A DNA stretch of 64,000 nucleotides, taken from the IMG/VR virus record IMGVR_UViG_2895476258_000013, positions 11,634 through 75,633 of that record; one strand, written 5' to 3'. The stretch is from a virus (taxonomy: Duplodnaviria; Caudoviricetes). Of the stretch, positions 40,410-64,000 are shown piece by piece. Within the stretch, counting starts at the first letter, position 1. The number at the start of each line of letters is the position of its first letter. The notes beneath the pieces are model-generated. The model had not been told where the DNA came from. It ran no database searches and saw only the letters and a program-made list of their open reading frames with translations. The position numbers were made by a program, and so were the translations under genes.

Positions 40410-40433
40410 CTCAACCACGCTCGGGGGTGAGGC

Positions 40434-46485: not shown

Positions 46486-46503
46486 GGGGATCCTCCGGAG
46501 TCG

Positions 46504-46563: not shown

Positions 46564-46586
46564 AGACATCGGGGGGGTGGTGGCAG

Positions 46587-50168: not shown

Positions 50169-50492
50169 GTGGCTGATGAGCCGTCTCTGGGTGAGCTGTC
50201 TCGCCGGATTGACCACATGACGGCGATGCTGGGGCAGCTCGTGCAGCGGGCGGAGTACACCGCGGACCGGCGCTACGACGACCGAAGGTTCGCTGAGATC
50301 GAGGCCGACCTCGCCGAGCTGCGCCGCACGTGGACGGACGAGCTGAAGGCGTTGAAGGCTAGCATCGACGCCGCCACCGAGAAGCGCGGCACCAACGTCA
50401 GGCAGGCCGTCTACGCAGGTCTCATCCCTGCCGTGCTGGTGTTGATCGGCATCATTGTGCAGGTCTGGCTCGCCTCGAAAGGCGGGTCCTGA
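50169..50492 (+). CDS. Lysis-cassette coiled-coil protein with C-terminal TM
   Basis: EPSLGELSRRID...; C-terminal GLIPAVLVLIGIIVQVWL. Confidence 0.75.
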   Translation: MADEPSLGELSRRIDHMTAMLGQLVQRAEYTADRRYDDRRFAEIEADLAELRRTWTDELKALKASIDAATEKRGTNVRQAVYAGLIPAVLVLIGIIVQVWLASKGGS

Positions 50493-51145
50493 TGGGTGAG
50501 CACGTACGGCTCGCGCGCCGCAACTGGCTGGTCATCGCTACCGCCGTTGTGGTCGCTCTGCTCGGACTATGGGCTTCGGTCCAGATCGGCGCTCTCGGCG
50601 AGCAGCTGCGCAAGTCAGAGGAGAACCAGGAGGTGCTTTCCGACCAGGTGGAGCGCCTCGGTGGGGAGCCTCTCGTGTCGCCATCTGTTGGCCCTCCCGG
50701 TGAGCGCGGTGAACCAGGCCGGGCCCCGACTGCTGCGGAAATCTCCGCCGCGGTGTCCGCCTACCTGGCCGCGCATCCGCCGGCGGGTGGCAGGGCGCCC
50801 ACATCGAGCGAGATCGCCGCGGCGGTAACGGCGTACCTGAAGGACCATCCGCCCGCCCGCGGGCCTGCTGGCTTTGCGGGGAGCCCGGGGCCTCGCGGTG
50901 AGCCCGGAGAGACCGTTACTGGCCCGCCGGGGGCCAAGGGCGAAGACGGCGTCGACGGTAAAGACGGCAAGGACTCGACCGTTCCCGGACCTCAGGGTGA
51001 GCGCGGCCCGCCGCCGTCCGCCGAACAGATCTCCGACGCCGTCGACGCGTGGCTGAAGGCCAACCCCATCTACTGCTACCCGCCCGACCCGCCTGGCCAG
51101 GTCACAGGCAAGCCATGGCGATGCACAGCCGTCGCACCGTCTTGA
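50492..51145 (+). CDS. Membrane-anchored collagen-like protein
   Basis: N-terminal TM, coiled coil, Gly-X-Y runs, three EI.AAV.AYL..HP repeats. Confidence 0.8.
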   Translation: MGEHVRLARRNWLVIATAVVVALLGLWASVQIGALGEQLRKSEENQEVLSDQVERLGGEPLVSPSVGPPGERGEPGRAPTAAEISAAVSAYLAAHPPAGGRAPTSSEIAAAVTAYLKDHPPARGPAGFAGSPGPRGEPGETVTGPPGAKGEDGVDGKDGKDSTVPGPQGERGPPPSAEQISDAVDAWLKANPIYCYPPDPPGQVTGKPWRCTAVAPS

Positions 51146-51158
51146 AAAGGAGGCCAGC

Positions 51159-51956
51159 GTGCCATACCTGACACAGCTCGCGAAGGTGGCCCGCCGTACC
51201 GGCTGCCCGGTGACTGAGGTGTCCGGCTGGAAGACTCGCGGACACGGGCCTCAGCCCGAGGTCGACGGCGTCGTCTGCCACCACACCGCCGGCTGGAATG
51301 ACATGCACGTGGTCCGCGACGGCCGACCGGGTCTTGACGGGCCGCTGTCGCACATCTGGCTACGCCGCGACGGACGGATCTTCATCGTTGCTGCGGGTCG
51401 GTGCTGGCACAACGCGCCGAGTCTGTCGCTGGGCCACACCAACAGCCGCTCGATCGGTATCGAGGCGGAGAACGACGGCCGGACGGCGTGGCCCAAGGTG
51501 CAGTTGGACGCCTACAAGCGGCTGTGTGCGGAGCTGTGCCGCGAGTTCGGGCTGCCGGTGTCGACGGTGAAGGGCCACAAGGAGGTCAACTCCTCCAAGC
51601 CGGACCCGCACTCGATCAACATGACCAGCTTTCGCAAGGACGTCGCCGCGTTGCTCAAGGGTGAGCCCGCGGCGCCGGCCCTCACGTGGACGGAGAAGCT
51701 CGTGAAGGACCTACCCGTGCTCCGCCCCAAAGACGACAACTACGACGTCAAGACGGCCAGGAGCGCACTCTTCGCCCGCGGCTACCTCCCCGAGGCCGTC
51801 TACGCCACCGTGGGGCTGCAGGCATGGCTGGAGCGGACCAAGTACGACGACGAATTCGCGGGCCTCATCAAGGGCTTCCAGAAGCTGAAGAAGCTCGACG
51901 CGGATTGCCTGATCGGCCCCGACACCTGGCGAGCCCTGCTGACGGCCTCCAGATGA
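51159..51956 (+). CDS. Endolysin: N-acetylmuramoyl-L-alanine amidase plus peptidoglycan-binding domain
   Basis: VVCHHTAG, GRCWHNA, SIGIEAEN, VKGHKE, KPDP; FQKLKKLDADCLIGPDTW. Confidence 0.92.
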   Translation: MPYLTQLAKVARRTGCPVTEVSGWKTRGHGPQPEVDGVVCHHTAGWNDMHVVRDGRPGLDGPLSHIWLRRDGRIFIVAAGRCWHNAPSLSLGHTNSRSIGIEAENDGRTAWPKVQLDAYKRLCAELCREFGLPVSTVKGHKEVNSSKPDPHSINMTSFRKDVAALLKGEPAAPALTWTEKLVKDLPVLRPKDDNYDVKTARSALFARGYLPEAVYATVGLQAWLERTKYDDEFAGLIKGFQKLKKLDADCLIGPDTWRALLTASR

Positions 51957-52081
51957 GCGACGGCCTGTTCGCCCTCTGGTGGCCGTGGCCGTACCAAGAA
52001 CGCCTCCCCGTGGCATCCATGCCGGCGGAGGAGATCGAGCCCGGGGAGCGCATCCCTGGGCTCATCGACGAGTGCAACTGA
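51953..52081 (+). CDS. Small hypothetical peptide
   Basis: ATGA overlap with endolysin stop; 42 aa. Confidence 0.4.
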   Translation: MSDGLFALWWPWPYQERLPVASMPAEEIEPGERIPGLIDECN

Positions 52082-52167
52082 CCGCGAGACCACGTTCTCG
52101 CCCTGGGCGGTCCTGCCGGATGCAGGGCCGCCCTTCGCATGTCCCCTGATAGGAAGAGCATCCTCGA

Positions 52168-52701
52168 ATGCGCATCAACAAGAGCGCGACCCTCGCCGCC
52201 GGCGTTCTCATCGCGGCGAGCATGACCACCGGTACGGCGTCGGCTGCTGCCGCGCCCGGCGTGGGCGACCTCAAGATTGTGGAGGTCGGTACGGACGCGA
52301 TGGGCAGCGACACGTTCGCTAACCGGAACCGCGAGTTCGTCACCTTCAAGAACGACACCGCCGCCGCGATCGACATCGATGGTGTGGTCGTTCAGGACAA
52401 CTGGTCGAAGAACAACCCGAGCCCGCACACCTGCAACAAGTACGTGATCACCGGCCTGCCCGGTCAGGGCTCCGGCGCGATGCTCGGCGTGGGCGAGACC
52501 GTGACCGTCTTCAACGGCAGCAGGTGGGGCGGCAACTACAAGAACGGCAGCGAGTACCGGCTGTACGCGCGAAGCGACGTGGACTGCGGCACCGCCGGCC
52601 ACTTCCTGAACAACGACGCCGACTCTGTCTGGGTGACCGCGGGCGTTACCGCGGTCGACAGCAAGTCGTGGGACTGGAACGGCGGCTACACCGTCAAGTA
52701 G
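52168..52701 (+). CDS. Secreted lamin-tail-domain (LTD)-like protein
   Basis: Signal peptide ending ASAAAA; NREFVTFKN...IDIDG.V.D...GETVTV...FLNNDAD. Confidence 0.7.
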   Translation: MRINKSATLAAGVLIAASMTTGTASAAAAPGVGDLKIVEVGTDAMGSDTFANRNREFVTFKNDTAAAIDIDGVVVQDNWSKNNPSPHTCNKYVITGLPGQGSGAMLGVGETVTVFNGSRWGGNYKNGSEYRLYARSDVDCGTAGHFLNNDADSVWVTAGVTAVDSKSWDWNGGYTVK

Positions 52702-52710
52702 GAGGCTGTC

Positions 52711-53061
52711 ATGAAGAAGGTCACCATCTTCGGCCAAGAGCCTGCGATGATCCTCGGGGCCGTCAACGCCCTGGTCGCGCTCGTGGTCGCATACGGCCTG
52801 GATCTGTCGCAGGTGCAGACAGCGGCTATCTCGACGGTGGCGAGTGGCGTCTTGGCCATCGCTGTCGCGGTGATGACGCGCCCGGTCGTCGTTTCCGCGC
52901 TGACGGGTGCGGTGTCCACGGTGATGGCCGCGGTCGCCGGGTTCGGGCTGGAGTTCACCGCGGACCAGATCGGCGCCACCGTCACGGTCCTGTCGATCGT
53001 GCTGGCGCTGGTGCTGCGGGCGAACGTGACCCCTGTGTCCGGGCCGGTGCAGCCTCAGTAA
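52711..53061 (+). CDS. Holin
   Basis: IFGQEPA N-terminus, several TM segments, RANVTP C-terminus; RBS AGGAGG. Confidence 0.8.
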   Translation: MKKVTIFGQEPAMILGAVNALVALVVAYGLDLSQVQTAAISTVASGVLAIAVAVMTRPVVVSALTGAVSTVMAAVAGFGLEFTADQIGATVTVLSIVLALVLRANVTPVSGPVQPQ

Positions 53062-53137
53062 CTGGAGTCCGTTTCGTCCGCTTTCCCGGATCCGGGAAGT
53101 CGTCTGAGCTGGCTCTTTGCCAGTTGGGGCAATAAGT

Positions 53138-53177
53138 AGCCCGCTCTCCCTTCGGGGAGGGCGGGCTTCTTTGCTTT
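53138..53177 (+). terminator. Rho-independent terminator ending the late operon
   Basis: AGCCCGCTCTCCC-ttcg-GGGAGGGCGGGCT then TCTTTGCTTT. Confidence 0.85.
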
Positions 53178-53183
53178 GTACGG

Positions 53184-53936
53184 CTACTGATCCGCGACGG
53201 AGCAATGGAGCGCTAGGCGCATCCGCACTTCGCTGCGCGTGTAACCGCCACCAGCCTCCGACGCAGCGGAGAGCAACATGTCCAGCTCCGGCCTCGTCCG
53301 GCGCTGATACATGATGGTGCTCTTCGCTATCCCGAGAGTCTGACAGGCGGCACCCAGAGTGGATCCCTCCCGTAGTGCCTCAAGGAGCGGGCGGAGTTGG
53401 TCAGCCTCGTGGCGGACGAGCGCCCGATCAACGTTGGCGGCGAAGGCCGGGTGCTGTTGCATATGCCTGTGGACTGTCGAGCGTTCTACTCCAACGGCTG
53501 CGGCGGCAAGGCTGATTCGACCAAGCCGGGCTACAGCATCAACGCAAGCTGAATGCCATGGGGCCTCGGATAGCGTCTGAGTGCGCTCTTGGCGTGCTCG
53601 CTCCGCGTTCCAGGCCCGGCAGTCGGGGCATCGGCAGCGGCGATCCTTGTAGCTGTACTCGGTCCCGTGAGAGTGCGATTCGTCTCGCGTAACCAGCAGC
53701 ACAAGATCGAGGTCACGCCGCCATAGCCGATCCCAGCGCGCCCTCGACAACACCTGCTGAGTGGTCACCCCCAGGTCTGCGGCGGCTTCGCCCAGAGGAA
53801 CGCCACGCGCGAGCGCCACCAGCAGCAATGTCTGAGCCTCGTGGGGAAAGTCGCGGTCTGCCTGCTGCTGGCGCCTGCGCCGCTCCTGCTCGGCGTGCAG
53901 CCGCTTCTCTGCGCCCGTCCGAGCAGGCTTCGTCAT
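53184..53936 (-). CDS. Multi-HTH protein with CxCxxC zinc motif
   Basis: Three HTH-like segments; HGTEYSY...CRCPDC. Confidence 0.7.
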   Translation of the reverse strand: MTKPARTGAEKRLHAEQERRRRQQQADRDFPHEAQTLLLVALARGVPLGEAAADLGVTTQQVLSRARWDRLWRRDLDLVLLVTRDESHSHGTEYSYKDRRCRCPDCRAWNAERARQERTQTLSEAPWHSACVDAVARLGRISLAAAAVGVERSTVHRHMQQHPAFAANVDRALVRHEADQLRPLLEALREGSTLGAACQTLGIAKSTIMYQRRTRPELDMLLSAASEAGGGYTRSEVRMRLALHCSVADQ

Positions 53937-54466
53937 GGGAGCGCTGGGAGCGAAGCGTCGGTGTTCCCTCGCGAGAGCGTGTCCAGCACTGCGAGTGCCT
54001 GGATGCGACTCCATCCCCGGCACGCCTGCGCCAGCGCCGCCTGCTCAACACCCTCGGGCAACTCGTCGGGGTCGATGTCCTCGACTTCCTGTGCGAGCAA
54101 CTCGCCGGGATTGTGTAGCCATGTCGCGTCCACAACGGTCGAGCGGACGAGGTGCCGCAAGACCTGCCAGAGGGCGCCGGGCATTGGCTCCAGGTCGGCC
54201 AATTCCAGTGCGAACAGCCGTTCCAGCAGCTCATCGGCCTCGGGCAGAAAACCGGGCCGATCGAGGCCACGGGCACGAGCGATGGCCTTGTCCACCTCGC
54301 CGACGCTGATGCCCAGCAAATCGGCGGCATGCTGGCGTCCGCCTCGGCCGTACTCCTCCACCCCTTTGAGGATCCATCGGGACCGGTCATCGGCGGCGCG
54401 CGTACGGGCAACCTCGCCCCGGGCCTTGGCCGCTTCTGCGTGGGCGAACCAATCGGGCGTCGTCAC
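53933..54466 (-). CDS. HTH-containing hypothetical protein
   Basis: GTG at 54466 with RBS GGAG; RQHAADLLGISVGEVDKAI. Confidence 0.7.
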   Translation of the reverse strand: MTTPDWFAHAEAAKARGEVARTRAADDRSRWILKGVEEYGRGGRQHAADLLGISVGEVDKAIARARGLDRPGFLPEADELLERLFALELADLEPMPGALWQVLRHLVRSTVVDATWLHNPGELLAQEVEDIDPDELPEGVEQAALAQACRGWSRIQALAVLDTLSRGNTDASLPALP

Positions 54467-54798
54467 TTCGTCTCCTCCACAGTGCTGAGCGTCTCGGCCT
54501 CGATCTCGTCGAACCGTTCGGTGACCGCGTTGCTGGCCTGCTCCAGCAGCTCGTCTAATTCCAGCCCTTCCAGGGTGGCGTCGATGGGGCCGTGGATCTC
54601 GCTGAGATGCGGGAACCAGTGGCAGTCGTCGGGCAGCAGGTTGTCGAACTCGCGCTCCTGGGCGTCCATCAGCGCTTCGGCGAGGGCGCCCTGCTGGTCG
54701 TCGGTGTATTCGCCGTTGTTGATGTAGCTCATCCAGCCGTCGACCTGGTAGTCGCGGCCGAGCGTGTAGTTCCTGGCGAGGACGGTCGTGGTGGTCAT
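54463..54798 (-). CDS. Highly acidic small protein
   Basis: 26 D/E vs 5 K/R in 111 aa; RBS AGGAG. Confidence 0.7.
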   Translation of the reverse strand: MTTTTVLARNYTLGRDYQVDGWMSYINNGEYTDDQQGALAEALMDAQEREFDNLLPDDCHWFPHLSEIHGPIDATLEGLELDELLEQASNAVTERFDEIEAETLSTVEETK

Positions 54799-54825
54799 GG
54801 AGGACTCCTAGGTGGTGGTGGAGGG

Positions 54826-55317
54826 TTAGAGGGCGGCGATGGCGGCGCGGACGCCGGAGACGATGGCCTGCCACACCTCGGCGGGGGTGGCGACCCGGGA
54901 CTCGCTGTAGCCGTAGCGGCAGTGGAGCTTGCCGGTGGCGGCGTCGAACCACACCTGGTCGATGCTGGCGAGCAGCTTGTACGCCTGGCTGTTGGAGATG
55001 GTCTCGCCCTGGTAGGTGGCGCCGGAGATGTTGCCGGTGTTGTAGTGGCTGGTCTCGATCCCGGCGAGGGCGGCCCAGTCGTTGAGGTAGACGCGGTCGT
55101 GGCCGTTCTTGATCCAGCGGTTGCCGCCGATCGCGGTCATCGTCTCGATGGAGAAGACGGTCTTCTTGGCGGTGAGGGAGATGCGGCGGGCGAGGGAGGC
55201 GGCTTCGATGACCCACCGGCCGGCGACCTTGGCGGCGGCGACGGCGCCGTACCGGCACCAGTGCCGGATGGTGGCGACGGTGACGCTGGCCTGGGTGGCG
55301 GCGGTGGTGGTGTCCAT
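54826..55317 (-). CDS. N-terminal HTH (excisionase-like) fused to unknown domain
   Basis: TTAAATQASVTVATIRHWCRYGAVAAAKVAGRWVI. Confidence 0.75.
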   Translation of the reverse strand: MDTTTAATQASVTVATIRHWCRYGAVAAAKVAGRWVIEAASLARRISLTAKKTVFSIETMTAIGGNRWIKNGHDRVYLNDWAALAGIETSHYNTGNISGATYQGETISNSQAYKLLASIDQVWFDAATGKLHCRYGYSESRVATPAEVWQAIVSGVRAAIAAL

Positions 55318-55354
55318 CTCGGCTTCCTCTCTGGTGCGTTCTCCCTACGCACAT

Positions 55355-55401
55355 AACTATGCCCTACCCCATAAGGTTTGTCTATGGGGTAGGGCATAGT
55401 T
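55355..55401 (-). promoter_or_regulatory. 19-bp perfect inverted repeat operator over leftward promoter
   Basis: AACTATGCCCTACCCCATA (55355-73) N9 TATGGGGTAGGGCATAGTT (55383-401); minus strand TAGACA N17 CATAGT. Confidence 0.75.
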
Positions 55402-55477
55402 TTTGGCGGACTGCCCCGGTCCTCTGCTCGTACGGGTGTTCGGTCTAGGATCCCCTCGAACCACGAACGGGGAGACC

Positions 55478-55747: not shown

Positions 55748-55751
55748 AGAC

Positions 55752-55777
55752 GCCCCGGCCTCAACAGAGACCGGGGC
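55752..55777. terminator. Stem-loop between convergent genes
   Basis: GCCCCGG...CCGGGGC. Confidence 0.5.
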
Positions 55778-55793
55778 TTGCTCAGGGTGCTGG

Positions 55794-55982
55794 CTATACG
55801 TTCTCGCCTTTGCTGGCCAGGTAGACCCCGCGGTTGACGCCGTGATGGAACGGGCACCCACCATGCGGCCACGTGGGCCAAAGCTCGTCCGCGATCACGC
55901 ATGCCGAGCAGTCCTCAGCGTCTTCCTCGTTCACGTCGAGCAGGTCCATCAGGTCGATTTCGCTTGCCTCGGCAAGAGACAT
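55794..55982 (-). CDS. Small Cys/His hypothetical protein
   Basis: RBS GAGAGG; CSAC...CPFH. Confidence 0.6.
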   Translation of the reverse strand: MSLAEASEIDLMDLLDVNEEDAEDCSACVIADELWPTWPHGGCPFHHGVNRGVYLASKGENV

Positions 55983-56029
55983 GGCACCTCTCTTCGTCTC
56001 GTTGGTGGGAGTGGGGCTCAGGAGCTCGT

Positions 56030-56194
56030 CTACCGGTGGAATCCCAGCACGCTCCGGATCGTCGTTCCAGTGGTGGCCTTCTCAGACGCGGCCACCCACG
56101 CCTCCATGGCCGCCTCTTTCTCCGGGCCGTCTGGTGTGGACTCGGCCTTCTGTTTGAGCTCCGTCAGTTCGCGGGCGGTTGGTCTGCCGGTCAC
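56030..56194 (-). CDS. Small hypothetical protein (not in ORF track)
   Basis: MTGRPTARELTELKQKAE...; RBS GAGGA; GTGA overlap. Confidence 0.55.
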   Translation of the reverse strand: MTGRPTARELTELKQKAESTPDGPEKEAAMEAWVAASEKATTGTTIRSVLGFHR

Positions 56195-56331
56195 GATTCC
56201 TCTGTCCACTGCTCGACGACCCAGCGCGGAATGATCCCCTCGCTGCCGCAGAAGTCGCAGCCGCTGCCCTCACATCCGGGGCAGGTAGCTGGGTTGTCCT
56301 CATACCAGGGCTTGTTGCCGGGAAGGGTCAC
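56191..56331 (-). CDS. Small zinc-finger protein (not in ORF track)
   Basis: CPGCEGSGCDFCGSEG; RBS GAGGAGGAG. Confidence 0.6.
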   Translation of the reverse strand: MTLPGNKPWYEDNPATCPGCEGSGCDFCGSEGIIPRWVVEQWTEES

Positions 56332-56343
56332 GTCTCCTCCTCT

Positions 56344-56523
56344 TCAGTGCTGGTGGATGCCAGCGGATGCCGTGGCGTGCAGAGCGCCGCCTATCGTCGT
56401 GACGCCGGCCACGGAGACCTGGTGGCGGCACTGCGGGCGGCACATGCACCCGTACGTCACAGTGGGCGTCCCGTCGACCCAGGTCATGGTGTGGTCGGGG
56501 GCGTCGGCCGGTTTGAACGTCAT
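56344..56523 (-). CDS. Small hypothetical protein (not in ORF track)
   Basis: MTFKPADAPDH...CMCRPQC; fills operon gap. Confidence 0.45.
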   Translation of the reverse strand: MTFKPADAPDHTMTWVDGTPTVTYGCMCRPQCRHQVSVAGVTTIGGALHATASAGIHQH

Positions 56524-56525
56524 CG

Positions 56526-56693
56526 TCAGCGCCCGCCCTTCTCGCTACGCGCCTTCTCGATCGCGCCCGGGTACGCCTCCTTGAAGTGGAGTTCGCCCTT
56601 CTTCCAGTCGACCCGGTCGAGGCGGTAGCCCTGCTTCTTCTTCTCTTCGACGAGTTCAGAGAATGATTCCTGGGTCAGTTTGCCGATGCTCAT
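56526..56693 (-). CDS. Small hypothetical protein (not in ORF track)
   Basis: MSIGKLTQESFSELVEEKKKQGY...; RBS AAAGGAG. Confidence 0.65.
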   Translation of the reverse strand: MSIGKLTQESFSELVEEKKKQGYRLDRVDWKKGELHFKEAYPGAIEKARSEKGGR

Positions 56694-56786
56694 GGTTCTC
56701 CTTTGATGTGTTGGTGTTGATGAGATCTGGCCTTGCGGGCACCCGCCCGGCCGGGGAAGTGCCGGGCGAGCACCCGCAACGTCAGC

Positions 56787-56969
56787 TCAGTCCTTCTCCA
56801 GGGCGGCGGCGCGTTGCGCGTCTGCGAGCCTGTCGCTCAGCATTTCGAGCTCGTGGCGGGCGTCTGCCTTCTCGTCTGCAGTCATGATCGCCTTGTGTGT
56901 TTTGACGAACTCGAACAGGGCGTCGTACTCGCTCTTGAGGCGCCGCGCCTGCTGTTTGAAATAGCCCAC
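56787..56969 (-). CDS. Small coiled-coil protein
   Basis: GTG start overlapping upstream gene end. Confidence 0.6.
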   Translation of the reverse strand: MGYFKQQARRLKSEYDALFEFVKTHKAIMTADEKADARHELEMLSDRLADAQRAAALEKD

Positions 56970-56975
56970 GACACG

Positions 56976-57251
56976 TCAGCGCTTACCGCGCTTGGGGGGA
57001 GCCCACCACGGCCGGCGAAGTTCCTCGGCGGCCTCGCCCCAGTCCTTCGCGTTGGCCGCCGCGACCCTGCGGTTGCTGTCGTGCTGCCGGGCCAGGTACC
57101 TGTCGGCGTGCCGGTCGGTGCTCTGGCCGGAATCGAGGCGCTTCTGGTACTCCTCCGCCTTCTGCTTCTCTTCGCGTGCTTTGGCGGCTTCCTGGCTGGC
57201 GATCTCCGCCGCGCTGCCTGCCAACTTCTTGCGTTCCTTACCCCAACCCAT
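56976..57251 (-). CDS. Small basic protein
   Basis: RBS GAGGAGG; MGWGKERKK... Confidence 0.7.
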   Translation of the reverse strand: MGWGKERKKLAGSAAEIASQEAAKAREEKQKAEEYQKRLDSGQSTDRHADRYLARQHDSNRRVAAANAKDWGEAAEELRRPWWAPPKRGKR

Positions 57252-57331
57252 GTGTGTCCTCCTCTCGGTGGAGCTGGCTGCTCCGGGCACCCGCCCAGGC
57301 GGGGAAGTGACTGGGCGGGCACCCGCAACGG

Positions 57332-57520
57332 TCAGCCGGTGACGTGCCGGATGCCGTCCACGACGCTCGTGTTGCCGTCGCGGTGCCGGTTCTGCTCGTC
57401 GGCGATGGCGCGAAGGTCCTGCGGGGACACGCCCGCCTTGAGTTGCTTTTCCGTCCACGCACGGGTCTGGTCGTAGGTGGCGGTGTTCACGTCCAGCGTG
57501 CTGGGCTTGGGCTTCGCCAT
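57332..57520 (-). CDS. Small hypothetical protein
   Basis: RBS GAGGAGG; MAKPKPST... Confidence 0.7.
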   Translation of the reverse strand: MAKPKPSTLDVNTATYDQTRAWTEKQLKAGVSPQDLRAIADEQNRHRDGNTSVVDGIRHVTG

Positions 57521-57609
57521 GCTGTCCTCCTCGGGGGATTGGTGGAGCTGGGCCGCTCCGGGCACCCGCCACGCCCCCGGACGTGGCGAGCACCCGCAAC
57601 AGGCAGACC

Positions 57610-57774
57610 TCACTTGAGGACCTTGGTCGCGAACACGGCGAGCTGGTCGGCGCCCGTGAAGATGCTGTTCAGTAGGCCATTGACCGCGTCGGCGGCCTGG
57701 GCGGGACGGCTGAACAGATAGAACACGGCGAAGGCGATGCCCACGTACATGAGCGGCTTCTTGAGACGGTGCAT
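57610..57774 (-). CDS. Small membrane protein (Spd-like)
   Basis: RBS AAAGGA; YVGIAFAVFYLFSRP..AADAV. Confidence 0.65.
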   Translation of the reverse strand: MHRLKKPLMYVGIAFAVFYLFSRPAQAADAVNGLLNSIFTGADQLAVFATKVLK

Positions 57775-57791
57775 GACAGTCCTTTCTGTTG

Positions 57792-58013
57792 TCAGGAGTC
57801 GCGGACGCCTTCGCGGTCGGGGTGTGCCCGCCGGGCACGCTCGGGCCGGTTGGCGTTGCGGACGAAGAGCACGATGGCTCCGATGGCCAGCGCCGCGTAC
57901 ACGGCCATCGCGGCGAACGCGGCCGGGACGCTCGCGGTGGAGAGCCACACGCATGCGATCAGGCCGCCGATGGCGAACACCCAGCAGGCAAGGAGGATCA
58001 GGAAGCGTTGCAT
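57792..58013 (-). CDS. Two-TM membrane protein (Spd-like)
   Basis: FLILLACWVFAIGGLIACVWL / AFAAMAVYAALAIGAIVLFV. Confidence 0.65.
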   Translation of the reverse strand: MQRFLILLACWVFAIGGLIACVWLSTASVPAAFAAMAVYAALAIGAIVLFVRNANRPERARRAHPDREGVRDS

Positions 58014-58033
58014 CAGCTTGGTCCCCTCGGGGG

Positions 58034-58186
58034 TTAACGGGTGAGGTAGCCCTTGCCGCGGCAGCCGTGGCATTTGCGCGATTTGAGGTGCTTGCCGCCG
58101 GTAAGCGACATCACGACGATCTCGCCTTCGCCATCGCATGTCGGGCAGGTCATGCCGGGTCTGAAGAAGACGCCGAGGATTCCCAT
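58034..58186 (-). CDS. Small DnaJ-type zinc-finger protein
   Basis: CPTCDGEG...CHGCRGKG; RBS GGAG. Confidence 0.65.
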   Translation of the reverse strand: MGILGVFFRPGMTCPTCDGEGEIVVMSLTGGKHLKSRKCHGCRGKGYLTR

Positions 58187-58350
58187 GTCTGTTTCTCCGA
58201 TCGGTTGTAACGGGATCTTGGGAGCGGGTGCTCCGGACACCCCTCCCGAGAGATCGGGAAGGTCTCCGCAACCACCGCTCGCGGGCCCTTCGACGCAACC
58301 GTGAGTGACCGTCTTGGGGCTACAGCAGGGCTGCCTCCGAGCGCCGCGCA

Positions 58351-58520
58351 GGGGTTAAGCGGCCGAAGGCGGGTTAAATTTTTAGTCCTCGGGTTAAATC
58401 CAACGATCACGTCGCTGAGCTGGGGAAAGTTAAGCGCGAGTCCGGGTTAAGCGGGTTAAGCGAAGGGGCCCGGAAGCCTGGAGATGGAGTGTCCCGAGGG
58501 GATGTTCCTCTCTTAACCCG
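58351..58520. repeat. 8-bp CGGGTTAA repeat cluster downstream of traB (candidate clt)
   Basis: Exact at 58370, 58390, 58443, 58452; near at 58351 and 58426; inverted at 58513-58520. Confidence 0.8.
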
Positions 58521-60702
58521 CGTCGTCCTCGTGGGTGACGCCGGCTGTGGCGATCTCCACCATGCGGCAACGGATGGTGATCGGATCGATGGGATAGCGG
58601 TTCTTCGACGAGGGCACCTTGACGCCGAGGAGGCCCAGTTCGCGCACCAGCTCCATCCGGTCGCGGAGTAGCGCGTAAGGGCGGTGCCGCGAGTACGCAG
58701 ACTTCAAGGCAGCCAACGCCTGGGCGGCCGGAACCGGGTCGGCGCCGATCACATCGAGCAGGTCCGCCAGAAGGTCCCTCTCCTCGTCGTCAAAGGTGGC
58801 GTTGCCGAGGGCAGCCTTCTCCCTCAGCGCCACCGCCCGCGCCACGACCGAGCCCATCTCTGCGTACGGCACGTAGTAGGTGCGCAGCAGGCCGGCCTTG
58901 GCTTGGAAGCCGCTCGCCATGCAGGTGCCGATGTCGCCCGGCCCTTCCTCCGTCTTCGGCTCTAGGCCGACAGCGGAGATGCCCCTCTTGTACGAGCCGG
59001 TGCCGAGCACCGCGTCGTTCGAGGTCTGGTCGCCGATGGCGAAGCACGCCTTGTTGGAGATGACCGCCATCAGCTTGCGCGGCAGCGACGCCGACGACGG
59101 TTCCGGGGTGGCGAAGATCAGGGTGACGGCGTACTTTCGGGCCGCGCCCATCAGCTTCACACACAGCTCTTCGGCCTCCTCTCCGAACTCCTCGTTGAGG
59201 AACAGCGCCTGGCACTCGTCGATGACGATGATGCGCGGTCGTAGCCGCTCGTCCTTCTCTGCGAGTTCCCTGGTCACCATGGGGGCGCCGTGCTCCTGCA
59301 GCGCCTTGCCTCGCACGCTGAGTTCGGCGTACACCTCGCGCAGAAGGAACAGGCACGCTTCGACGACCTCGTCGCCCGGTCCCGTGAGCAGGGTCCGCAG
59401 GCGGGGTCGGAGCGGGTCGTAGTCGGCGTTCGTGGCGAAGACGAACACGTCGATCTCGACCAGGTAGTCGAGGATGGCCCCCAGCAGCAGCGTGAGGATC
59501 ATCGTGGATTTGCCGGAGCCCATCATGCCGGCCAGCGCGTAGTTCTTCTGAAACAGCAGGCCGATGACGGTCTTGCCGCGAATGTTCCGCGACACGGGGA
59601 CGCCCTCGAAGTAGTCGCCGACGCCGTCCTTCAGTAGCGGCCAGTCAGGCATCGGGCCGGTCAGCGATCCCTGGTCGGCGACCCACAGGTCCAGCACGCC
59701 GGGCTGCTTCTTGGGCTCGGTGGCCCACACCTCGACGGGCAGGCGTACGAGGTTGTGCGCGAGCACGGGCTTCTTCTGATTGATCATTTCTACGGTGACG
59801 CCCGGCGGCGGTTCAAGCTGGGTCCGGTACCCCTCACCGTCGCGCTGGGTCGGCAGCACGATCCGCGGCTTCCAACCCGCCTTGAAAGCCCTGTTCAGCG
59901 GGGCGATACCCAGGTGCTTCAGCGCGTTGATGATCGCTGACTCGTCGGGAATGACGTCCCGGCTGCTGTCGCTCTCTCGATCGTCGGCAACAAGCCACGT
60001 CGGCGTCTCACCCAGGCGGCGGCCTTCACGATGGCCTGCCCACGCCAGCAGCGGGACGAAGGCCACCACGAACACGGACCAGGCAACTCTGGTGGCACTG
60101 GCCAGCCATCGGAGGACGCCGCCGAACCACACCCACAGGTCCGTCCAACCTCCCGCGCCGGTCGCCCACACCACCGTGGCCGCCACGACCAGCAGCACCG
60201 GCACGGCCAGGAGGCAGCAGCAGGTGAGGATCGCCATCTTGAGCACCAGTAGCGGCAGCTTCATGAGCCGCTCGTAGCGGTCGTTCTTGGCTTCCTTCCG
60301 CTTTTCGATCCAGAACGCCAGCGCTTCGCGGTCGCCGGTGGCCTTCGCGATGCGGATCTGCTCGCGGATGTCTCCGCTGGTGAGGCCGTCTTTCGCGCGG
60401 ACGATCCAGGAGTGCCAGCCCGCGAGAACGAGAGCGCCGTGCTGCGCGGCGGTGCGGGCACGCTTCCTGGTGGCGGGGGAGGGCCGCAGCACCGTCACCC
60501 GGTCGACCACCGCGGACGGCAGGCGGCTGGAGCGTTCGGGCACGTCGGAGACGATTTCGGCCTCGACGACTGCGGGCTCCACCTCGTGCTCCTGCCGGGG
60601 CTCCAGCTCGTCGTGGCGCTGCTCGTCTTCGGGCAGGGTCAGGCCGGGAGCGTCGTCGGCGTTGCGGACGATCTCCAACCTGCGGCGCGGGCTCTCGGTC
60701 AA
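58513..60702 (-). CDS. traB: FtsK/SpoIIIE-family conjugative DNA translocase (TraB-like)
   Basis: N-terminal TMs; GMMGSGKS Walker A; IIVIDECQ Walker B; ARKYAVTL; C-terminal wHTH-like region; TTG start with RBS GAGGAGG. Confidence 0.88.
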   Translation of the reverse strand: MTESPRRRLEIVRNADDAPGLTLPEDEQRHDELEPRQEHEVEPAVVEAEIVSDVPERSSRLPSAVVDRVTVLRPSPATRKRARTAAQHGALVLAGWHSWIVRAKDGLTSGDIREQIRIAKATGDREALAFWIEKRKEAKNDRYERLMKLPLLVLKMAILTCCCLLAVPVLLVVAATVVWATGAGGWTDLWVWFGGVLRWLASATRVAWSVFVVAFVPLLAWAGHREGRRLGETPTWLVADDRESDSSRDVIPDESAIINALKHLGIAPLNRAFKAGWKPRIVLPTQRDGEGYRTQLEPPPGVTVEMINQKKPVLAHNLVRLPVEVWATEPKKQPGVLDLWVADQGSLTGPMPDWPLLKDGVGDYFEGVPVSRNIRGKTVIGLLFQKNYALAGMMGSGKSTMILTLLLGAILDYLVEIDVFVFATNADYDPLRPRLRTLLTGPGDEVVEACLFLLREVYAELSVRGKALQEHGAPMVTRELAEKDERLRPRIIVIDECQALFLNEEFGEEAEELCVKLMGAARKYAVTLIFATPEPSSASLPRKLMAVISNKACFAIGDQTSNDAVLGTGSYKRGISAVGLEPKTEEGPGDIGTCMASGFQAKAGLLRTYYVPYAEMGSVVARAVALREKAALGNATFDDEERDLLADLLDVIGADPVPAAQALAALKSAYSRHRPYALLRDRMELVRELGLLGVKVPSSKNRYPIDPITIRCRMVEIATAGVTHEDDAG

Positions 60703-61858: not shown

Positions 61859-61867
61859 GGCGTGCTC

Positions 61868-62011
61868 CTACGTGTCGGTGTCGTCGAGCTCGTCCGGCTC
61901 GGCGGGTTCGTCGGTGGCGGGCTGTAGGGCGGCGAGCATGGCGAGCTCCTCGGCGTTGAGGGCCGCTACAGCTCGGGCGAGCCGCCGGCGTCGCCGCTCT
62001 TCAGGGGTCAT
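61868..62011 (-). CDS. Small hypothetical protein
   Basis: MTPEERRRRR...; RBS GGAG. Confidence 0.5.
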   Translation of the reverse strand: MTPEERRRRRLARAVAALNAEELAMLAALQPATDEPAEPDELDDTDT

Positions 62012-62101
62012 CGGGGGTGCTCCGTGTGTGGCCCCGTCCGCGGGGGCGCGATGGTTTGGATGCCAGGACACGTCCGCCGCGGACGGGGGAGTAGAAGGGG
62101 G

Positions 62102-62293
62102 TCAGCGCCGGACGCGGTACTTGGCCTCGCCGCGCTTGACCATGCCGGTGTTGCCGTCGCTGAACTCGATCCAGCGGCCTCGCATGAGGAGGCCGTCCTC
62201 GTCGCCGATGTCGTAGGCGTCGACCACGCGTGTGCCGTCTTCGAGGACGCCGCCTTTCTTCAGGTCGGCGGCGTCCACTTCACGAATCGCCAT
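62102..62293 (-). CDS. Small hypothetical protein
   Basis: RBS AAAAGGA; MAIREVDAADLKKG... Confidence 0.65.
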   Translation of the reverse strand: MAIREVDAADLKKGGVLEDGTRVVDAYDIGDEDGLLMRGRWIEFSDGNTGMVKRGEAKYRVRR

Positions 62294-62388
62294 GTTGTTC
62301 ACGTCCTTTTCGTCGTCTCGGGGGAGTAGGGTTGCCCGGCCGCCGCGGCGAGGGTTACCCCCCCGGGATGAGCGGCAGCCGGGCAGGT

Positions 62389-62562
62389 TCATCGCGCAGC
62401 CCTCCGACAGGAGCAGCGGCGGTTCGAACAGCGAGGGTCAGTGCAGGCGATCGTGTCGATCGCCGGGGCGCTCATGTAGCCGCGACGCTTGGGCTGGTGG
62501 ACCATCCGGCTGGTGACCTCGTTGATCCGCTCCCGGATCTCGTCAGGGGTACGGGTCGTCAT
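62389..62562 (-). CDS. Small hypothetical protein (not in ORF track)
   Basis: ATGA overlap; MTTRTPDEIRERINEV...CTDPRC. Confidence 0.55.
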   Translation of the reverse strand: MTTRTPDEIRERINEVTSRMVHQPKRRGYMSAPAIDTIACTDPRCSNRRCSCRRAAR

Positions 62563-62762
62563 CGAGACACCACCTGACGAGGAACGCGCCGGTAGTCGGA
62601 CAGCCGGACCACGTTGTCGGGCAGGACGGTGGCAGGGGCGATCTCCACGTCATTCGCTTCAAGAAGAAGCCCGACCTTGGCGGAGAGGACGGAAGCGTCC
62701 TCCAAGAGCGCGTGGAGCAGGTCTACGGGGACCGCGATGGTCTCCGGAGCTGTATGTGTCAT
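62559..62762 (-). CDS. Small hypothetical protein, first gene of transfer operon
   Basis: RBS GAAGGA before ATG 62762; upstream start at 62942 possible. Confidence 0.55.
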   Translation of the reverse strand: MTHTAPETIAVPVDLLHALLEDASVLSAKVGLLLEANDVEIAPATVLPDNVVRLSDYRRVPRQVVSR

Positions 62763-63027
62763 GATGAGGGAGTCCTTCCGTCCTTGACCGGCCTGGAGGA
62801 CATGCGGGCGGCCCGGATCGTGGAAGTGAGGGGCCGCCCGTCGCATGTCTGGGGCGATCGCGAGCGTCAGTAGGAAATCGCGCCCCATGACGGGAAATGC
62901 CGATGCGGATAAATCGCCCGACAAGTTCGCGGGGCTCTTCATGGATTGCCCTCCCTGGAACTGATAGGGCGTCGGCTCGGCTTTCAGGTCGTGCGAAGAG
63001 GCGTCGCGTCTAGGTCTACTGAGTTTC

Positions 63028-63117
63028 GCTAAGCGGTGTTAGCGTGTTGTGCTTAGACGGTAACGCGCCCTATGGGTGTCGTCAAGGCAGCTAAGCGCAT
63101 CCGCTAAGACCTCTTAG
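63028..63117. promoter_or_regulatory. Divergent control region: leftward promoter flanked by two CTAA-N6-TTAG operators
   Basis: Minus strand TTGACG (63080-85) N17 TACCGT (63057-62); palindromes at 63029-42 and 63104-17; extra half sites. Confidence 0.7.
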
Positions 63118-63145
63118 TACTCAAACACCTCAAACAGGGACATAG

Positions 63146-64000
63146 ATGTTCATTGATGCTGATGCGGTTCTTGATCTAGTAACTAGCTCAAACGATCCCG
63201 TCGAGCGAATCAAGAACGTAGGGGCCGCCCTCGTAGAGATCCAAAACCTGACGGCAGAGCTCGGCCGACTGCGACGCGAGGAGGTGGAGGAGTTGAAAGC
63301 GGCCGGCATGTCACAGAACGCCATCGCCAGGGCGATCGGGCTGACGAGCGCCAGGATGAGCCAGGTTATGAATAACGCCCCAGCCCCGGAGCGCGCTTTT
63401 TTCGGCGTAAAGATTGAGCCGATCATCGCGGCCGTCGCCGAGAAACGAGAGGCAGACAAGCCGAAGCCAGGCCCCGTGATTTCCATCGACGACATGCAGG
63501 CATACGACGGCCTGCGCAACCTAGTCGCAGACCTCGGATTGACGTCGACCTATGAAGTGGTAAGACCGCCCGGCAATATATGGCTCAACCGAAACGGACT
63601 CGTCGTCATTTGCGGACCTCGTCACTCATCTCTCATTGAGCAGGTGCTGGGATCTGACGACAAGCTCTCGTTCGAAAAGGACGACGCCGGATGGCACCTG
63701 GTGGACCATGTCGAAGGCGTTGCCTACCGCTCGCCGGAAGACTCCGACGAGCCAGGCGACATCGCCTATCTCGGTCGCCTGCCGCGGCCTGACGGCAAAG
63801 GGTATTTCCTGTACCTCGCTGGCATCCACGCCGCCGGCGCCGCAGGGGTCGTCCACTACCTCGGCAACGAACTGGCCAGCCTGTACCGGGAGGTCCGCAA
63901 CCGCAGGTTCTCGACCCTGATCCAGTGCCGCTACGACCCGGAAACCCATACGATCATCTCCAGCGAAAGGATCACGCCGGTCTACAAGCATGAAGGATGA
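63146..64000 (+). CDS. HTH regulator with uncharacterised C-terminal alpha/beta domain (candidate repressor)
   Basis: GMSQNAIARAIGLTSARMSQV HTH; divergent from transfer operon; TGA at 63998-64000. Confidence 0.75.
   Translation: MFIDADAVLDLVTSSNDPVERIKNVGAALVEIQNLTAELGRLRREEVEELKAAGMSQNAIARAIGLTSARMSQVMNNAPAPERAFFGVKIEPIIAAVAEKREADKPKPGPVISIDDMQAYDGLRNLVADLGLTSTYEVVRPPGNIWLNRNGLVVICGPRHSSLIEQVLGSDDKLSFEKDDAGWHLVDHVEGVAYRSPEDSDEPGDIAYLGRLPRPDGKGYFLYLAGIHAAGAAGVVHYLGNELASLYREVRNRRFSTLIQCRYDPETHTIISSERITPVYKHEG

What the first reader, a model, noticed from the sequence alone, without database searches (positions are those of the whole stretch)
50169..64000. Complete siphovirus genome joined to a TraB-type conjugation operon: a phage that may also spread by hyphal conjugation
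Seen: after the holin and terminator the sequence runs, with no host gene, integrase or att-like break that I could find, into a leftward operon encoding an FtsK/SpoIIIE ATPase (GMMGSGKS, IIVIDECQ), a DUF2637 protein, small TM proteins and an 8-bp repeat cluster, under a divergent HTH regulator. Established: TraB plus Spd proteins plus clt is the single-protein dsDNA transfer system of Streptomyces plasmids and AICEs, and a few Streptomyces plasmid-phages (e.g. pZL12) combine virion and tra/spd genes, so the concept has precedent but is rare. Inference: one element with two transmission routes (lysis and mycelial conjugation).
Basis: partly seen in the sequence, partly recalled or inferred. 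Interest (0 to 1): 0.85.

Follow-up and report, generated by a model that had tools for sequence, protein, structure and literature searches.

The report
Prophage carrying a TraB conjugation module
An 80-kb integrated virus of a filamentous soil actinomycete (Nonomuraea) carries, inside its own boundaries, the one-protein DNA pump and recognition site that actinomycete plasmids use for mating, and a dozen related viruses do the same, so these viruses may spread both as particles and by hyphal contact.

Summary
The whole contig shows more than the window could. One insertion of about 80.5 kb sits in the 3' end of comEA. It has a large serine integrase at its left end, 11.6-13.1 kb left of the window, and attR 3.4 kb beyond the right end. 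It holds both the complete siphovirus module and the leftward TraB operon. I found no second integrase and no internal att-like copy between them.

The TraB-like protein folds as an FtsK motor. Its nearest relatives outside this group are Tra proteins of small actinomycete plasmids. A cluster of GGGTTAA(GCG) repeats follows its stop codon.

Orthologues of this TraB lie a few kb from phage lysis and tail genes in 10 of 11 further loci examined. Each locus has a repeat cluster at the same place. The repeat motif follows the class of the TraB C-terminal domain, not the motor phylogeny.

31 IMG/VR viral contigs encode relatives. One 62-kb contig has direct terminal repeats and carries TerL, TraB and the repeats.

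No homologue was found in 50,697 deposited phage records.

The precedent is the conjugative Streptomyces plasmid-phage pZL12, so this is a new, integrative variant of a known, rare kind. Transfer itself is untested.

The parts
30579..37363 (+). Head and packaging genes: TerL 30579-32228, portal 32239-33642, protease 33623-34363, scaffold 34735-35292, major head protein 35368-36312, and a glycosyltransferase-like gene 36365-37363
   Evidence: PHROG matches with E 1.5e-69, 2.9e-120, 1.1e-46, 4.6e-17, 5.8e-50 and 2.6e-109
39039..49646 (+). Tail genes: major tail protein 39039-39590, tape measure 40434-44819 (1461 aa), minor tail proteins 44816-45994 and 46587-49646
   Evidence: PHROG matches. The G001 element has 60-66% identical tail proteins
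50169..53061 (+). Lysis cassette: TM proteins 50169-50492 and 50492-51145, amidase endolysin 51159-51956, secreted LTD-domain protein 52168-52701, holin-like protein with four TM segments 52711-53061
   Evidence: Pfam Amidase_2 at E 4.5e-23 plus a weak PG_binding_1 match below its cut-off (E 7.3e-4); hydropathy
53138..53167 (+). Terminator hairpin that closes the late operon and faces the first leftward gene
   Evidence: 13-bp stem with 10 G-C pairs, followed by a T run
53184..55354 (-). Two leftward genes of unknown role: an HTH-rich 250-aa protein (53184-53936) and a 473-aa ORF (53933-55354). Bases 54828-55331 are 81% identical to an HTH gene of a Streptomyces plasmid that carries phage genes
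   Evidence: The 473-aa ORF has no Pfam family and no Atlas hit
55794..58187 (-). Operon of seven small genes downstream of traB, taken as Spd-like candidates. Gene 57792-58187 has a Cys-rich N-terminus and 2 TM segments. Gene 57610-57774 has 1 TM segment and is about 60% conserved in relatives. The rest are hydrophilic. RGCACCCGC inverted repeats lie between the genes
58352..58519 (.). clt-like repeat cluster directly 3' of traB: GGGTTAAGCG three times, GGGTTAAAT twice, AAGTTAAGCG once, and one inverted copy over the traB stop codon
   Evidence: All three exact copies in the window lie here. Clusters sit at the same position in 9 further loci, with a motif that follows the class of the TraB C-terminal domain
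58513..60678 (-). TraB-like FtsK/SpoIIIE dsDNA translocase. It has an N-terminal membrane region, a motor with Walker A GMMGSGKS and Walker B IIVIDECQ, and a C-terminal domain of about 70 aa that resembles a winged helix
60699..61022 (-). Small protein with 2 TM segments between the DUF2637 gene and traB
   Evidence: Hydropathy. The same DUF2637, small gene, TraB order occurs in the AICE-like locus on contig C68
61019..61858 (-). DUF2637 membrane protein with 3 TM segments
   Evidence: Pfam PF10935 at E 2.5e-14. It is 54% identical to a protein in the G001 element
61868..62888 (-). Three small leader genes of the leftward operon (61868-62011, 62102-62392, 62559-62888)
   Evidence: Gene calls. 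No family was found for any of the three
63146..64000 (+). Divergent XRE-type HTH regulator of 284 aa. Beyond the window it is followed by a PP2C phosphatase, a Zn-finger protein, a secreted SNase/Excalibur nuclease, two short GntR-type proteins and attR at about window position 67374

Best explanation
The finding is the right arm of a single temperate siphovirus prophage of about 80.5 kb in a Nonomuraea chromosome. A large serine integrase inserted the prophage into the last codons of comEA. A conserved transfer module lies between its lysis cassette and attR, on the opposite strand and behind a strong terminator. This module is homologous to the conjugation core of actinomycete plasmids and AICEs. 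It holds a DUF2637 membrane protein, a small TM protein, a TraB-type FtsK-like dsDNA translocase, a cluster of 8-10 bp repeats directly after traB, and a string of small genes.

Proposed mechanism (inferred, not shown). In a lysogen the prophage excises as a double-stranded circle by Int acting on attL and attR. TraB assembles in the membrane at a hyphal contact. Its C-terminal winged-helix-like domain binds the GGGTTAA repeats (clt), and the motor pumps the whole circle into the neighbouring hypha. The small membrane proteins help spread it across septa. Int then integrates it at the recipient's comEA.

The element would thus have two routes of spread: virions after lysis, and receptor-independent, non-lethal hyphal conjugation.

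Shown here: there is one att-bounded element. TraB has an FtsK fold and plasmid Tra relatives. The module's position is conserved, and the repeat motif co-varies with the TraB C-terminal domain.

Not shown: excision, DNA binding, transfer, and packaging of the module.
For: 1. Boundaries. The empty site in G014 matches the left flank up to contig ~40874 and the right flank from ~121341, with a shared GGCCC core. The interrupted gene is ComEA (8dss, E 5.8e-21). The serine recombinase starts 36 bp inside attL. ComEC follows attR.

2. No second integrase was found among the proteins scanned. There is no internal att-like copy and no attP or attB contig. GC content is 0.65-0.68 across both parts, against 0.70-0.73 in the flanks.

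3. The virion and lysis gene set is complete.

4. TraB. The model has pLDDT 77.5. Its top fold matches are FtsK motors and the conjugation protein TcpA (E 1e-13 to 1e-14). tblastn hits in the plasmid collection fell on 21 actinomycete plasmids of 12-60 kb plus the Nonomuraea gerenzanensis chromosome record. The best is pCM32 at 45% identity; this plasmid is AICE-like, with an integrase and a prim-pol. The record lengths and source species of two hits fit pSVH1 (NC_007431, 24%, E 3e-5) and pSG5 (NC_008792, 25%, E 6e-6), an identification from memory.

5. Recurrence. 9 of 110 Nonomuraea species genomes and 4 genomes of other genera in the family carry close orthologues. Of 11 further ortholog loci inspected, 10 lie within a few kb of phage lysis or tail genes. 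Two of these are compact prophages of 43-44 kb with a serine integrase.

6. All ten loci inspected for this have a stem-loop and a repeat cluster right after traB. The motif class is TAACCC, CTAACTC or CTAACCC. It follows the C-terminal 70 aa of TraB: G000 versus G004 is 69% identical there, and G000 versus G008a or G283 is 34-35%. It does not follow the motor: G000 versus G008a or G283 is 84-85%, and G000 versus G004 is 69%. The GntR protein next to attR does not co-vary with the motif.

7. The traB ORFs are intact, and dN/dS is 0.24-0.51.

8. 31 IMG/VR viral contigs encode relatives. One has direct terminal repeats, is 62,227 bp long and is rated 100% complete by CheckV. It carries TerL, a tail gene, a lysin, a serine recombinase, TraB and the repeat cluster.

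9. Precedent. [quoted passage not shown] 2010).
Against: - There is no experimental or read-level evidence of excision, transfer, expression or packaging. The tools for sequencing runs and for encoding contigs were closed.
- PF01580 scores below Pfam's cut-off (21.9 against 24 bits).
- The winged-helix assignment for the C-terminal domain rests on middling scores (Z 4.3-6.1; Foldseek E 0.2 or worse).
- No Spd family could be matched to the small genes.
- The repeats lie in a promoter-proximal intergenic region and could be operators for a regulator.
- At 80.5 kb the element is nearly twice the size of the closest sequenced phages by portal similarity (40-45 kb). Packaging of the whole element is therefore uncertain.
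- No deposited phage record has a BLAST-detectable homologue of TraB or of the DUF2637 protein. The module has therefore not been seen in the genome of any isolated, deposited phage.
- In the terminal-repeat contig a tyrosine integrase lies next to the module. This hints that such modules arrive as nested AICEs.
Confidence: 0.6

Rival explanations
1. The module works, but not for transfer between mycelia. The phage would use TraB and clt to move its own DNA across septa within one mycelium. That could happen during lysogen establishment or lytic growth. Alternatively, the integrated clt would mobilise flanking chromosomal DNA in cis.
For: Streptomyces Tra/Spd systems also drive spreading within a mycelium (PMC4447253). 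AICE conjugation mobilises chromosomal DNA (PMC11571958). Virulent Streptomyces phages also carry FtsK-like genes of unknown role (PMC11536984, PMC13587820). The conservation data fit this reading equally well.
Against: The operon is transcribed opposite to the late genes. It lies behind a strong terminator and has its own divergent regulator. That is the layout of a gene set expressed from the prophage, not of a late lytic function. Its closest relatives are Tra proteins of small conjugative-type plasmids and AICE-like elements.
Confidence: 0.15
2. The module is the remnant of an AICE that once integrated into a phage genome. It has lost its integrase and replication genes, is carried passively, and no longer moves anything.
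For: The viral contig with terminal repeats has a tyrosine integrase beside its tra module. The same genome holds an AICE-like locus with the same DUF2637, small gene, TraB core. No AICE-type Rep gene was seen in the module.
Against: TraB is intact in all loci found, with dN/dS of 0.24-0.51. The repeat cluster is retained at the same place in ten loci. It changes together with the TraB C-terminal domain. The module persists across elements whose structural genes and integrases have diverged to 24-30% identity. A decaying remnant would not show this pattern.
Confidence: 0.12
3. The FtsK-like ATPase and its membrane partners act as a prophage-encoded exclusion or defence system against other phages or plasmids. 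The repeats would then be operator sites of a regulator.
For: There is a weak P-loop match to the defence ATPase mad8 (E 2e-10). The position between lysis genes and att is where prophages usually carry accessory genes. A nuclease and a PP2C phosphatase lie nearby. Part of the repeat cluster is palindromic, as operators are.
Against: No other protein of the module matches a PADLOC family. The whole-protein fold and the nearest homologues are DNA translocases of conjugation. The GntR regulator next to attR does not co-vary with the repeats, whereas the TraB C-terminal domain does.
Confidence: 0.08
4. There are two independent elements side by side: a prophage, and a separate AICE with its own integrase and att sites.
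For: Tandem accretion at one attB is known for integrative elements. The total size of 80.5 kb is large for this kind of phage.
Against: There is only one integrase, at the far left. No internal copy of either att arm exists. The empty site shows a single insertion. Two 43-44 kb relatives have the same layout without excess size.
Confidence: 0.05

Closest known systems
pZL12 / phiZL12, the Streptomyces plasmid-phage (Zhong et al. 2010, J Bacteriol 192:3747, as cited in PMC3583192 and PMC4487206), and its relative pSLE1
   Same: One element combines a tailed-virion gene set with a Streptomyces-type tra system. [quoted passage not shown]
   Different: pZL12 is kept as a ~90-kb circular plasmid with ParAB. 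The element here is chromosomally integrated by a serine integrase in comEA, and no ParAB was seen among the proteins scanned. The host family differs (Streptosporangiaceae). I could not compare the tra genes directly because I did not identify the pZL12 record. Here the layout is shared by a whole lineage of 10 or more prophages.
TraB/clt of Streptomyces plasmids pSVH1 and pSG5 (Reuther 2006; Vogelmann 2011; Thoma and Muth 2012, the first and third as cited in PMC12282955; the rest of this comparison is from my own knowledge)
   Same: A membrane-anchored FtsK-like hexameric dsDNA pump of about 720-770 aa. Short (8-bp) direct repeats near the 3' end of traB serve as a plasmid-specific recognition site. 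Small spd genes lie adjacent.
   Different: Only 24-25% identity over the motor (that these two records are pSVH1 and pSG5 is from memory). The repeat motif is GGGTTAA(GCG), not GACCCGGA. The module is carried by a prophage. DNA binding and transfer are untested.
AICEs and AICE-like plasmids, for example pCM32 of Saccharopolyspora endophytica and the locus on contig C68 of the same genome
   Same: pCM32 has the closest Tra homologue in the plasmid collection (45% identity). The C68 locus has the same DUF2637, small gene, TraB core. Both kinds of element integrate site-specifically.
   Different: The AICE-like comparators inspected here are about 12-15 kb and have no virion genes; the usual AICE size and Rep gene are known from the literature and my own knowledge. 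This element is 80.5 kb, has a full siphovirus module, and shows no AICE-type Rep among the proteins scanned.
FtsK/SpoIIIE-like genes of virulent Streptomyces phages (Geonosis, Jaresh, AndoPrime; PMC11536984, PMC13587820)
   Same: Phage-borne P-loop ATPases of the FtsK superfamily. PHROG families phrog_1358 and phrog_3551 match weakly.
   Different: Those genes are attributed in those papers to replication or left without a known role. As far as those papers report, they come without a repeat cluster, a DUF2637 gene or spd-like genes. No tblastn match to the protein here was found in 50,697 phage records.

Membership tests
TraB-type conjugative dsDNA translocase (Streptomyces plasmids and AICEs) | FtsK/SpoIIIE motor domain with Walker A and Walker B motifs | tested here: met
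   GMMGSGKS and IIVIDECQ are present. phrog_1358 matches at E 2.8e-18. Foldseek matches FtsK motor 2ius at E 1.7e-14 with TM 0.66 over about 419 columns. Pfam PF01580 scores only 21.9 bits against a 24-bit cut-off.
TraB-type conjugative dsDNA translocase (Streptomyces plasmids and AICEs) | Homology to Tra proteins of conjugative actinomycete plasmids | tested here: met
   tblastn found 22 records: 21 actinomycete plasmids of 12-60 kb and one Nonomuraea chromosome record. pCM32 is 45% identical at E 5e-84. NC_007431 (taken to be pSVH1) gives E 3e-5, and NC_008792 (taken to be pSG5) gives E 6e-6. The two plasmid names are from memory of record size and source species.
TraB-type conjugative dsDNA translocase (Streptomyces plasmids and AICEs) | N-terminal membrane association | tested here: met
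   Two hydrophobic segments lie at residues 138-216. The model has long helices at residues 125-231. This is a prediction only.
TraB-type conjugative dsDNA translocase (Streptomyces plasmids and AICEs) | C-terminal winged-helix DNA-binding domain | tested here: inconclusive
   The model of the last 90 aa has pLDDT 85. Most of the listed hits are winged-helix proteins (BlaI/MecI, PadR, ArsR, TubR, forkhead, LOTUS). The scores are weak, however: Z 4.3-6.1 and Foldseek E 0.2 or worse.
TraB-type conjugative dsDNA translocase (Streptomyces plasmids and AICEs) | Cognate clt made of short direct repeats close to traB, specific to each element | tested here: met
   The repeat cluster lies at 58352-58519. 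Clusters at the same position occur in 9 further loci. Their motif class tracks the TraB C-terminal domain and not the motor. Binding itself cannot be tested here.
TraB-type conjugative dsDNA translocase (Streptomyces plasmids and AICEs) | traB-dependent transfer of double-stranded DNA between mycelia (pock formation) | not testable with these tools
   This needs mating assays.
AICE (actinomycete integrative and conjugative element) | Compact att-bounded element of roughly 9-24 kb with Int, Rep (RepSA, RepAM or Prim-Pol) and Tra, and no virion genes | tested here: not met
   The att-bounded unit is about 80.5 kb and encodes a full virion module. Of the Pfam Rep families that Ghinet et al. list for AICEs (PMC3218068), none appeared among roughly 55 proteins of this element scanned against Pfam. 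Not every ORF was scanned.
Phage-plasmid (pZL12-like, P1-like lifestyle) | Prophage maintained as an extrachromosomal replicon with partition genes | tested here: not met
   The element is integrated between degV/comEA and comEC on a 150-kb chromosomal contig and has a serine integrase. No ParA or ParB appeared among the proteins scanned. An additional plasmid state cannot be excluded.
Temperate siphovirus prophage | Integrase with att sites, an immunity region, TerL, portal, major capsid protein, tape measure and a lysis cassette, all intact | tested here: met
   The portal is 42-47% identical to portals of isolated Arthrobacter and Streptomyces siphoviruses.

The most novel reading that the evidence does not exclude
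A whole lineage of temperate siphoviruses of Streptosporangiaceae would routinely move as naked double-stranded circles from hypha to hypha. They would do so with their own TraB pump and an element-specific clt. This gives a virus a transmission route that needs no receptor and does not kill the donor. Specificity would be reprogrammed by swapping the TraB C-terminal domain together with its repeats.
Probability: 0.45. Interest if true: 0.8.

Novelty: new variant of a known kind. Interest (0 to 1): 0.66.

Why it matters
Phages and conjugative elements are usually treated as separate transmission strategies. The one studied hybrid of this type, pZL12, is a plasmid.

Here an integrating prophage lineage keeps a TraB pump and a co-varying recognition site under purifying selection. 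It comprises at least a dozen elements in four genus groups of one family, plus 31 viral contigs.

If the module works, three things follow. These viruses could reach hosts that lack their receptor. They could spread lysogeny without lysis. They could also mobilise chromosomal DNA.

The two repeat classes, with matching C-terminal domains on otherwise similar motors, offer a natural swap experiment on how TraB recognises DNA.

It would also matter for genome mining. AICE finders and prophage finders would each annotate only half of such elements.

Tried and rejected
- Megablast of 50169-64000 found nothing in phage records. In plasmids it found only a 504-bp match.
- tblastn of TraB and of the DUF2637 protein against 50,697 phage records found nothing.
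- No tRNA gene is present in the window or its flanks, so the element does not use a tRNA attB.
- blastn-short searches for internal or extra copies of the att arms, and for attP or attB contigs in the assembly, found nothing.
- PADLOC gave only a weak P-loop match to mad8 for TraB, plus a match of the SNase-domain protein to C3a212.
- The 473-aa ORF at 53933-55354 has no Pfam family and no Atlas hit.
- Foldseek with the C-terminal domain gave no significant match. VIA-align gave only middling winged-helix hits.
- The pZL12 paper itself is not held, so I used secondary citations.
- A literature search on DUF2637 gave nothing useful.
- My first gene call on the + strand at 54592-55356 is a low-complexity antisense artefact of the minus-strand ORF.
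- No claim here rests on the genomes marked unpublished (G019, G024, G030).

Full report
**Where the window lies**

The window is bases 53968-117967 of a 150,414-bp contig (C565) of a 14.3-Mb assembly. GC content is 0.65-0.68 from about 40 kb to 123 kb of the contig and 0.70-0.73 outside that stretch.

I called genes with a codon-usage model trained on the genome. The closest homologues of the key protein carry Nonomuraea names, for example 82% identity to a Nonomuraea rubra protein. Several contig lengths in that table equal those of the anonymous relatives used below. The host is therefore a Nonomuraea (Streptosporangiaceae), not a Streptomyces.

**Checking the observation**

The late region of the phage is complete.
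- Head and tail genes: TerL, portal, protease, scaffold, major head protein, major tail protein, a 1461-aa tape measure and minor tail proteins.
- Lysis genes: an Amidase_2 endolysin at 51159-51956 and a holin-like protein with four TM segments at 52711-53061.
- Terminator: a strong hairpin at 53138-53167 closes this operon.

All further genes up to 62.9 kb run leftward.
- Pfam's FtsK_SpoIIIE model scores just under its cut-off. PHROG phrog_1358 (FtsK/SpoIIIE-like) matches at E 2.8e-18.
- An AlphaFold model built on 36 homologues has pLDDT 77.5. Foldseek superposes it on FtsK motor domains and on the conjugation protein TcpA (E 1e-13 to 1e-14, TM 0.66).
- Upstream lie a protein with 2 TM segments and a DUF2637 protein. 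Downstream lie seven small genes, two of them membrane proteins.
- A divergent HTH gene starts at 63146.

The repeat cluster is real. All three exact GGGTTAAGCG copies of the 64-kb window lie within 58352-58462. Four variants accompany them, one of which is inverted over the traB stop codon.

**One element or two?**

The flanks decide this question.

Left of the window lie host degV, then a ComEA gene, then a 485-aa large serine recombinase at contig 40904-42361. An immunity-type region follows, with an HTH_3 protein, a Bro-N protein and others. Right of the window lie a PP2C phosphatase, a zinc-finger protein, a secreted SNase/Excalibur nuclease, two short GntR-type proteins and then host comEC.

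In relative G014, degV, comEA and comEC are contiguous. Its sequence matches the left flank up to contig ~40874 and the right flank from ~121341, with a shared GGCCC core inside the last ~15 codons of comEA. The insertion is thus a single ~80.5-kb unit, spanning window positions of about -13100 to 67374. The integrase lies directly inside attL.

Three further checks agree.
- No other copy of either att arm exists in the contig or the assembly.
- No second integrase was found among the proteins scanned.
- No tRNA gene is involved.

**Is the tra module a conserved part of such phages?**

Two other Nonomuraea genomes carry mosaic relatives at the same comEA site. G008 has an integrase 74% identical, a lysin 90% identical and a TraB 67% identical. 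G001 has an integrase 77% identical, tail proteins 60-66% identical, a DUF2637 protein 54% identical and a more distant FtsK-like gene. In both, the module lies between the lysis genes and attR.

Close TraB orthologues occur in 9 of 110 Nonomuraea species genomes. They also occur in 4 genomes of other genus groups of the family. I fetched 11 further loci. In 10 of them the gene lies a few kb from phage lysis or tail genes. The eleventh (G004) is on a short contig, and its context is unclear.

Two of the loci (G271, G305) are compact prophages of 43-44 kb. They have a different serine integrase (29% identity), TerL, portal, a 1240-aa tape-measure-sized ORF, a CHAP lysin and TraB at the end opposite the integrase. 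They are inserted on the other side of comEC.

The same genome also has an AICE-like locus on contig C68. It has tyrosine integrases, the same DUF2637, small gene, TraB core, and no phage genes. This is the expected non-viral relative of the module.

**The cis site**

In every locus a stem-loop and a cluster of 7-9 bp repeats follow the traB stop codon, around a conserved centre (TTTCCGCAGGTCAG or a variant). The repeat motif falls into classes:
- TAACCC in G000, G268 and G004;
- CTAACTC in G008 (both copies), G283, G271 and G305;
- CTAACCC in G262.

The C-terminal 70 residues of TraB fall into the same classes. This grouping is decoupled from the motor phylogeny:

| Pair | Motor identity | C-terminal domain identity | Repeat class |
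|---|---|---|---|
| G000 vs G008a / G283 | 84-85% | 34-35% | different |
| G000 vs G004 | 69% | 69% | same |

The GntR protein next to attR behaves in the opposite way. It is 85% identical between G000 and G008a, whose repeats differ, and 44% identical between G000 and G268, whose repeats are the same. This pattern is what a TraB recognition site (clt) predicts, and it speaks against a mere operator of that regulator.

The C-terminal domain models well (pLDDT 85), and most of the listed structural hits are winged-helix proteins. The scores are too weak to settle the fold. TraB shows dN/dS of 0.24-0.51, and no broken copy was found.

**Evidence from viral collections**

IMG/VR holds 31 viral contigs that encode relatives with 38-82% identity. 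TraB often lies within a few kb of a contig end.

One metagenomic contig of 62,227 bp is classed as having direct terminal repeats and as 100% complete by CheckV. It contains TerL, a siphovirus tail gene, an amidase, a serine recombinase, a 735-aa TraB and the same kind of repeat cluster right after traB. This is indirect evidence that the free, circular or terminally redundant form of such a genome includes the module. That contig also has a tyrosine integrase beside the module, which hints at an origin by capture of an AICE.

In contrast, none of 50,697 deposited phage records has a BLAST-detectable homologue of TraB or of the DUF2637 protein.

**Comparison with what is known**

The nearest plasmid relative of TraB is the Tra protein of pCM32. 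This is a 14.6-kb AICE-like plasmid of Saccharopolyspora with an integrase and a prim-pol. Two records that I take from memory to be pSVH1 and pSG5, whose TraB proteins have been studied, match weakly.

The conceptual precedent is the Streptomyces plasmid-phage pZL12. It forms phage particles and needs a major tra gene plus two adjacent genes for conjugal transfer (PMC3583192, PMC4487206; the original paper is not held). A recent review of plasmid mobility, in the passages retrieved, describes phage-plasmids only as moving in virions (PMC12282955).

What differs here is chromosomal integration by a serine integrase, a different host family, conservation across a lineage, and a defined candidate clt with two specificity classes.

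**Caveats**

- Nothing here shows excision, expression, DNA binding, transfer or packaging.
- The element is about twice the size of the closest isolated phages by portal similarity, although the 43-44 kb relatives do not raise that concern.
- The small genes match no Spd family.
- Kinship among the loci limits the statistical weight of the co-variation. The motor versus C-terminal domain discordance supplies at least two independent associations.

**Verdict**

The one-element reading is supported. A working conjugation module is the most likely explanation (about 0.6). This is a new, integrative variant of a rare known kind.

Noticed in passing
window 56738-58232: The motif RGCACCCGC occurs 11 times in the window against 4.0 expected, and none of 100 shuffles reached 11. 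Seven copies lie in this 1.5-kb stretch. Six of them form inverted pairs between the small genes. The seventh lies in a palindrome, GGAGCGGGTGCTCC, next to the repeat cluster, and that palindrome is conserved in several related elements. This may be an operator or an attenuator of the small-gene operon.
   Followed up: partly
window 54828-55331 (inside the minus-strand ORF 53933-55354): This stretch is 81% identical at DNA level to an HTH gene of the 90-kb Streptomyces sp. NBC_01259 plasmid NZ_CP108469.1. That plasmid carries a tape measure gene, ParAB, an integrase and a PhlD-type PKS, so it looks like a pZL12-type phage-plasmid. This suggests gene exchange across actinomycete orders between such elements.
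   Followed up: partly
window 53933-55354, minus strand: A 473-aa ORF with very high third-position GC has no Pfam family and no Atlas hit. The + strand ORF at 54592-55356 is a low-complexity antisense artefact of it.
   Followed up: partly
G000 contig C68, about 37.4-50.7 kb (L057, L058): The same genome has a second DUF2637, small gene, TraB core. It is flanked by two tyrosine integrase genes and has no phage genes, so it is probably a classical AICE.
   Followed up: partly
contig positions 40.3-40.9 kb and 121.3-121.4 kb (L001, L002); G271 and G305 loci: The attB lies in the last ~15 codons of comEA, and the phage end supplies a similar replacement C-terminus. Two related prophages with a different serine integrase insert on the other side of comEC instead. 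The comEA-comEC neighbourhood is thus a hot spot for this lineage.
   Followed up: partly
G008 contigs C14 and C16: One genome carries two TraB-bearing prophages. Both have CTAACTC-type repeats and class-B TraB C-terminal domains, so cross-recognition or incompatibility between them is possible.
   Followed up: no
L002 964-4245 (window 63997-67278, beyond the right end): A set of accessory genes lies between the tra regulator and attR: a PP2C phosphatase, a DnaJ-type zinc-finger protein, a secreted SNase plus Excalibur nuclease (it matches PADLOC C3a212) and two short GntR-type proteins.
   Followed up: partly
L089 14295-15461: In the viral contig with terminal repeats, a tyrosine integrase lies between the lysin and the tra module, in addition to the serine recombinase. 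This hints that the module entered the phage as a nested AICE.
   Followed up: no
whole element, contig 40.9-121.3 kb: At 80.5 kb the element is nearly double the 40-45 kb genomes of the closest isolated phages by portal similarity. G008's element at the same site is about 94 kb. The early region of about 44 kb is full of methylases, HNH endonucleases, sugar-modifying enzymes and tail-fibre-like genes.
   Followed up: partly
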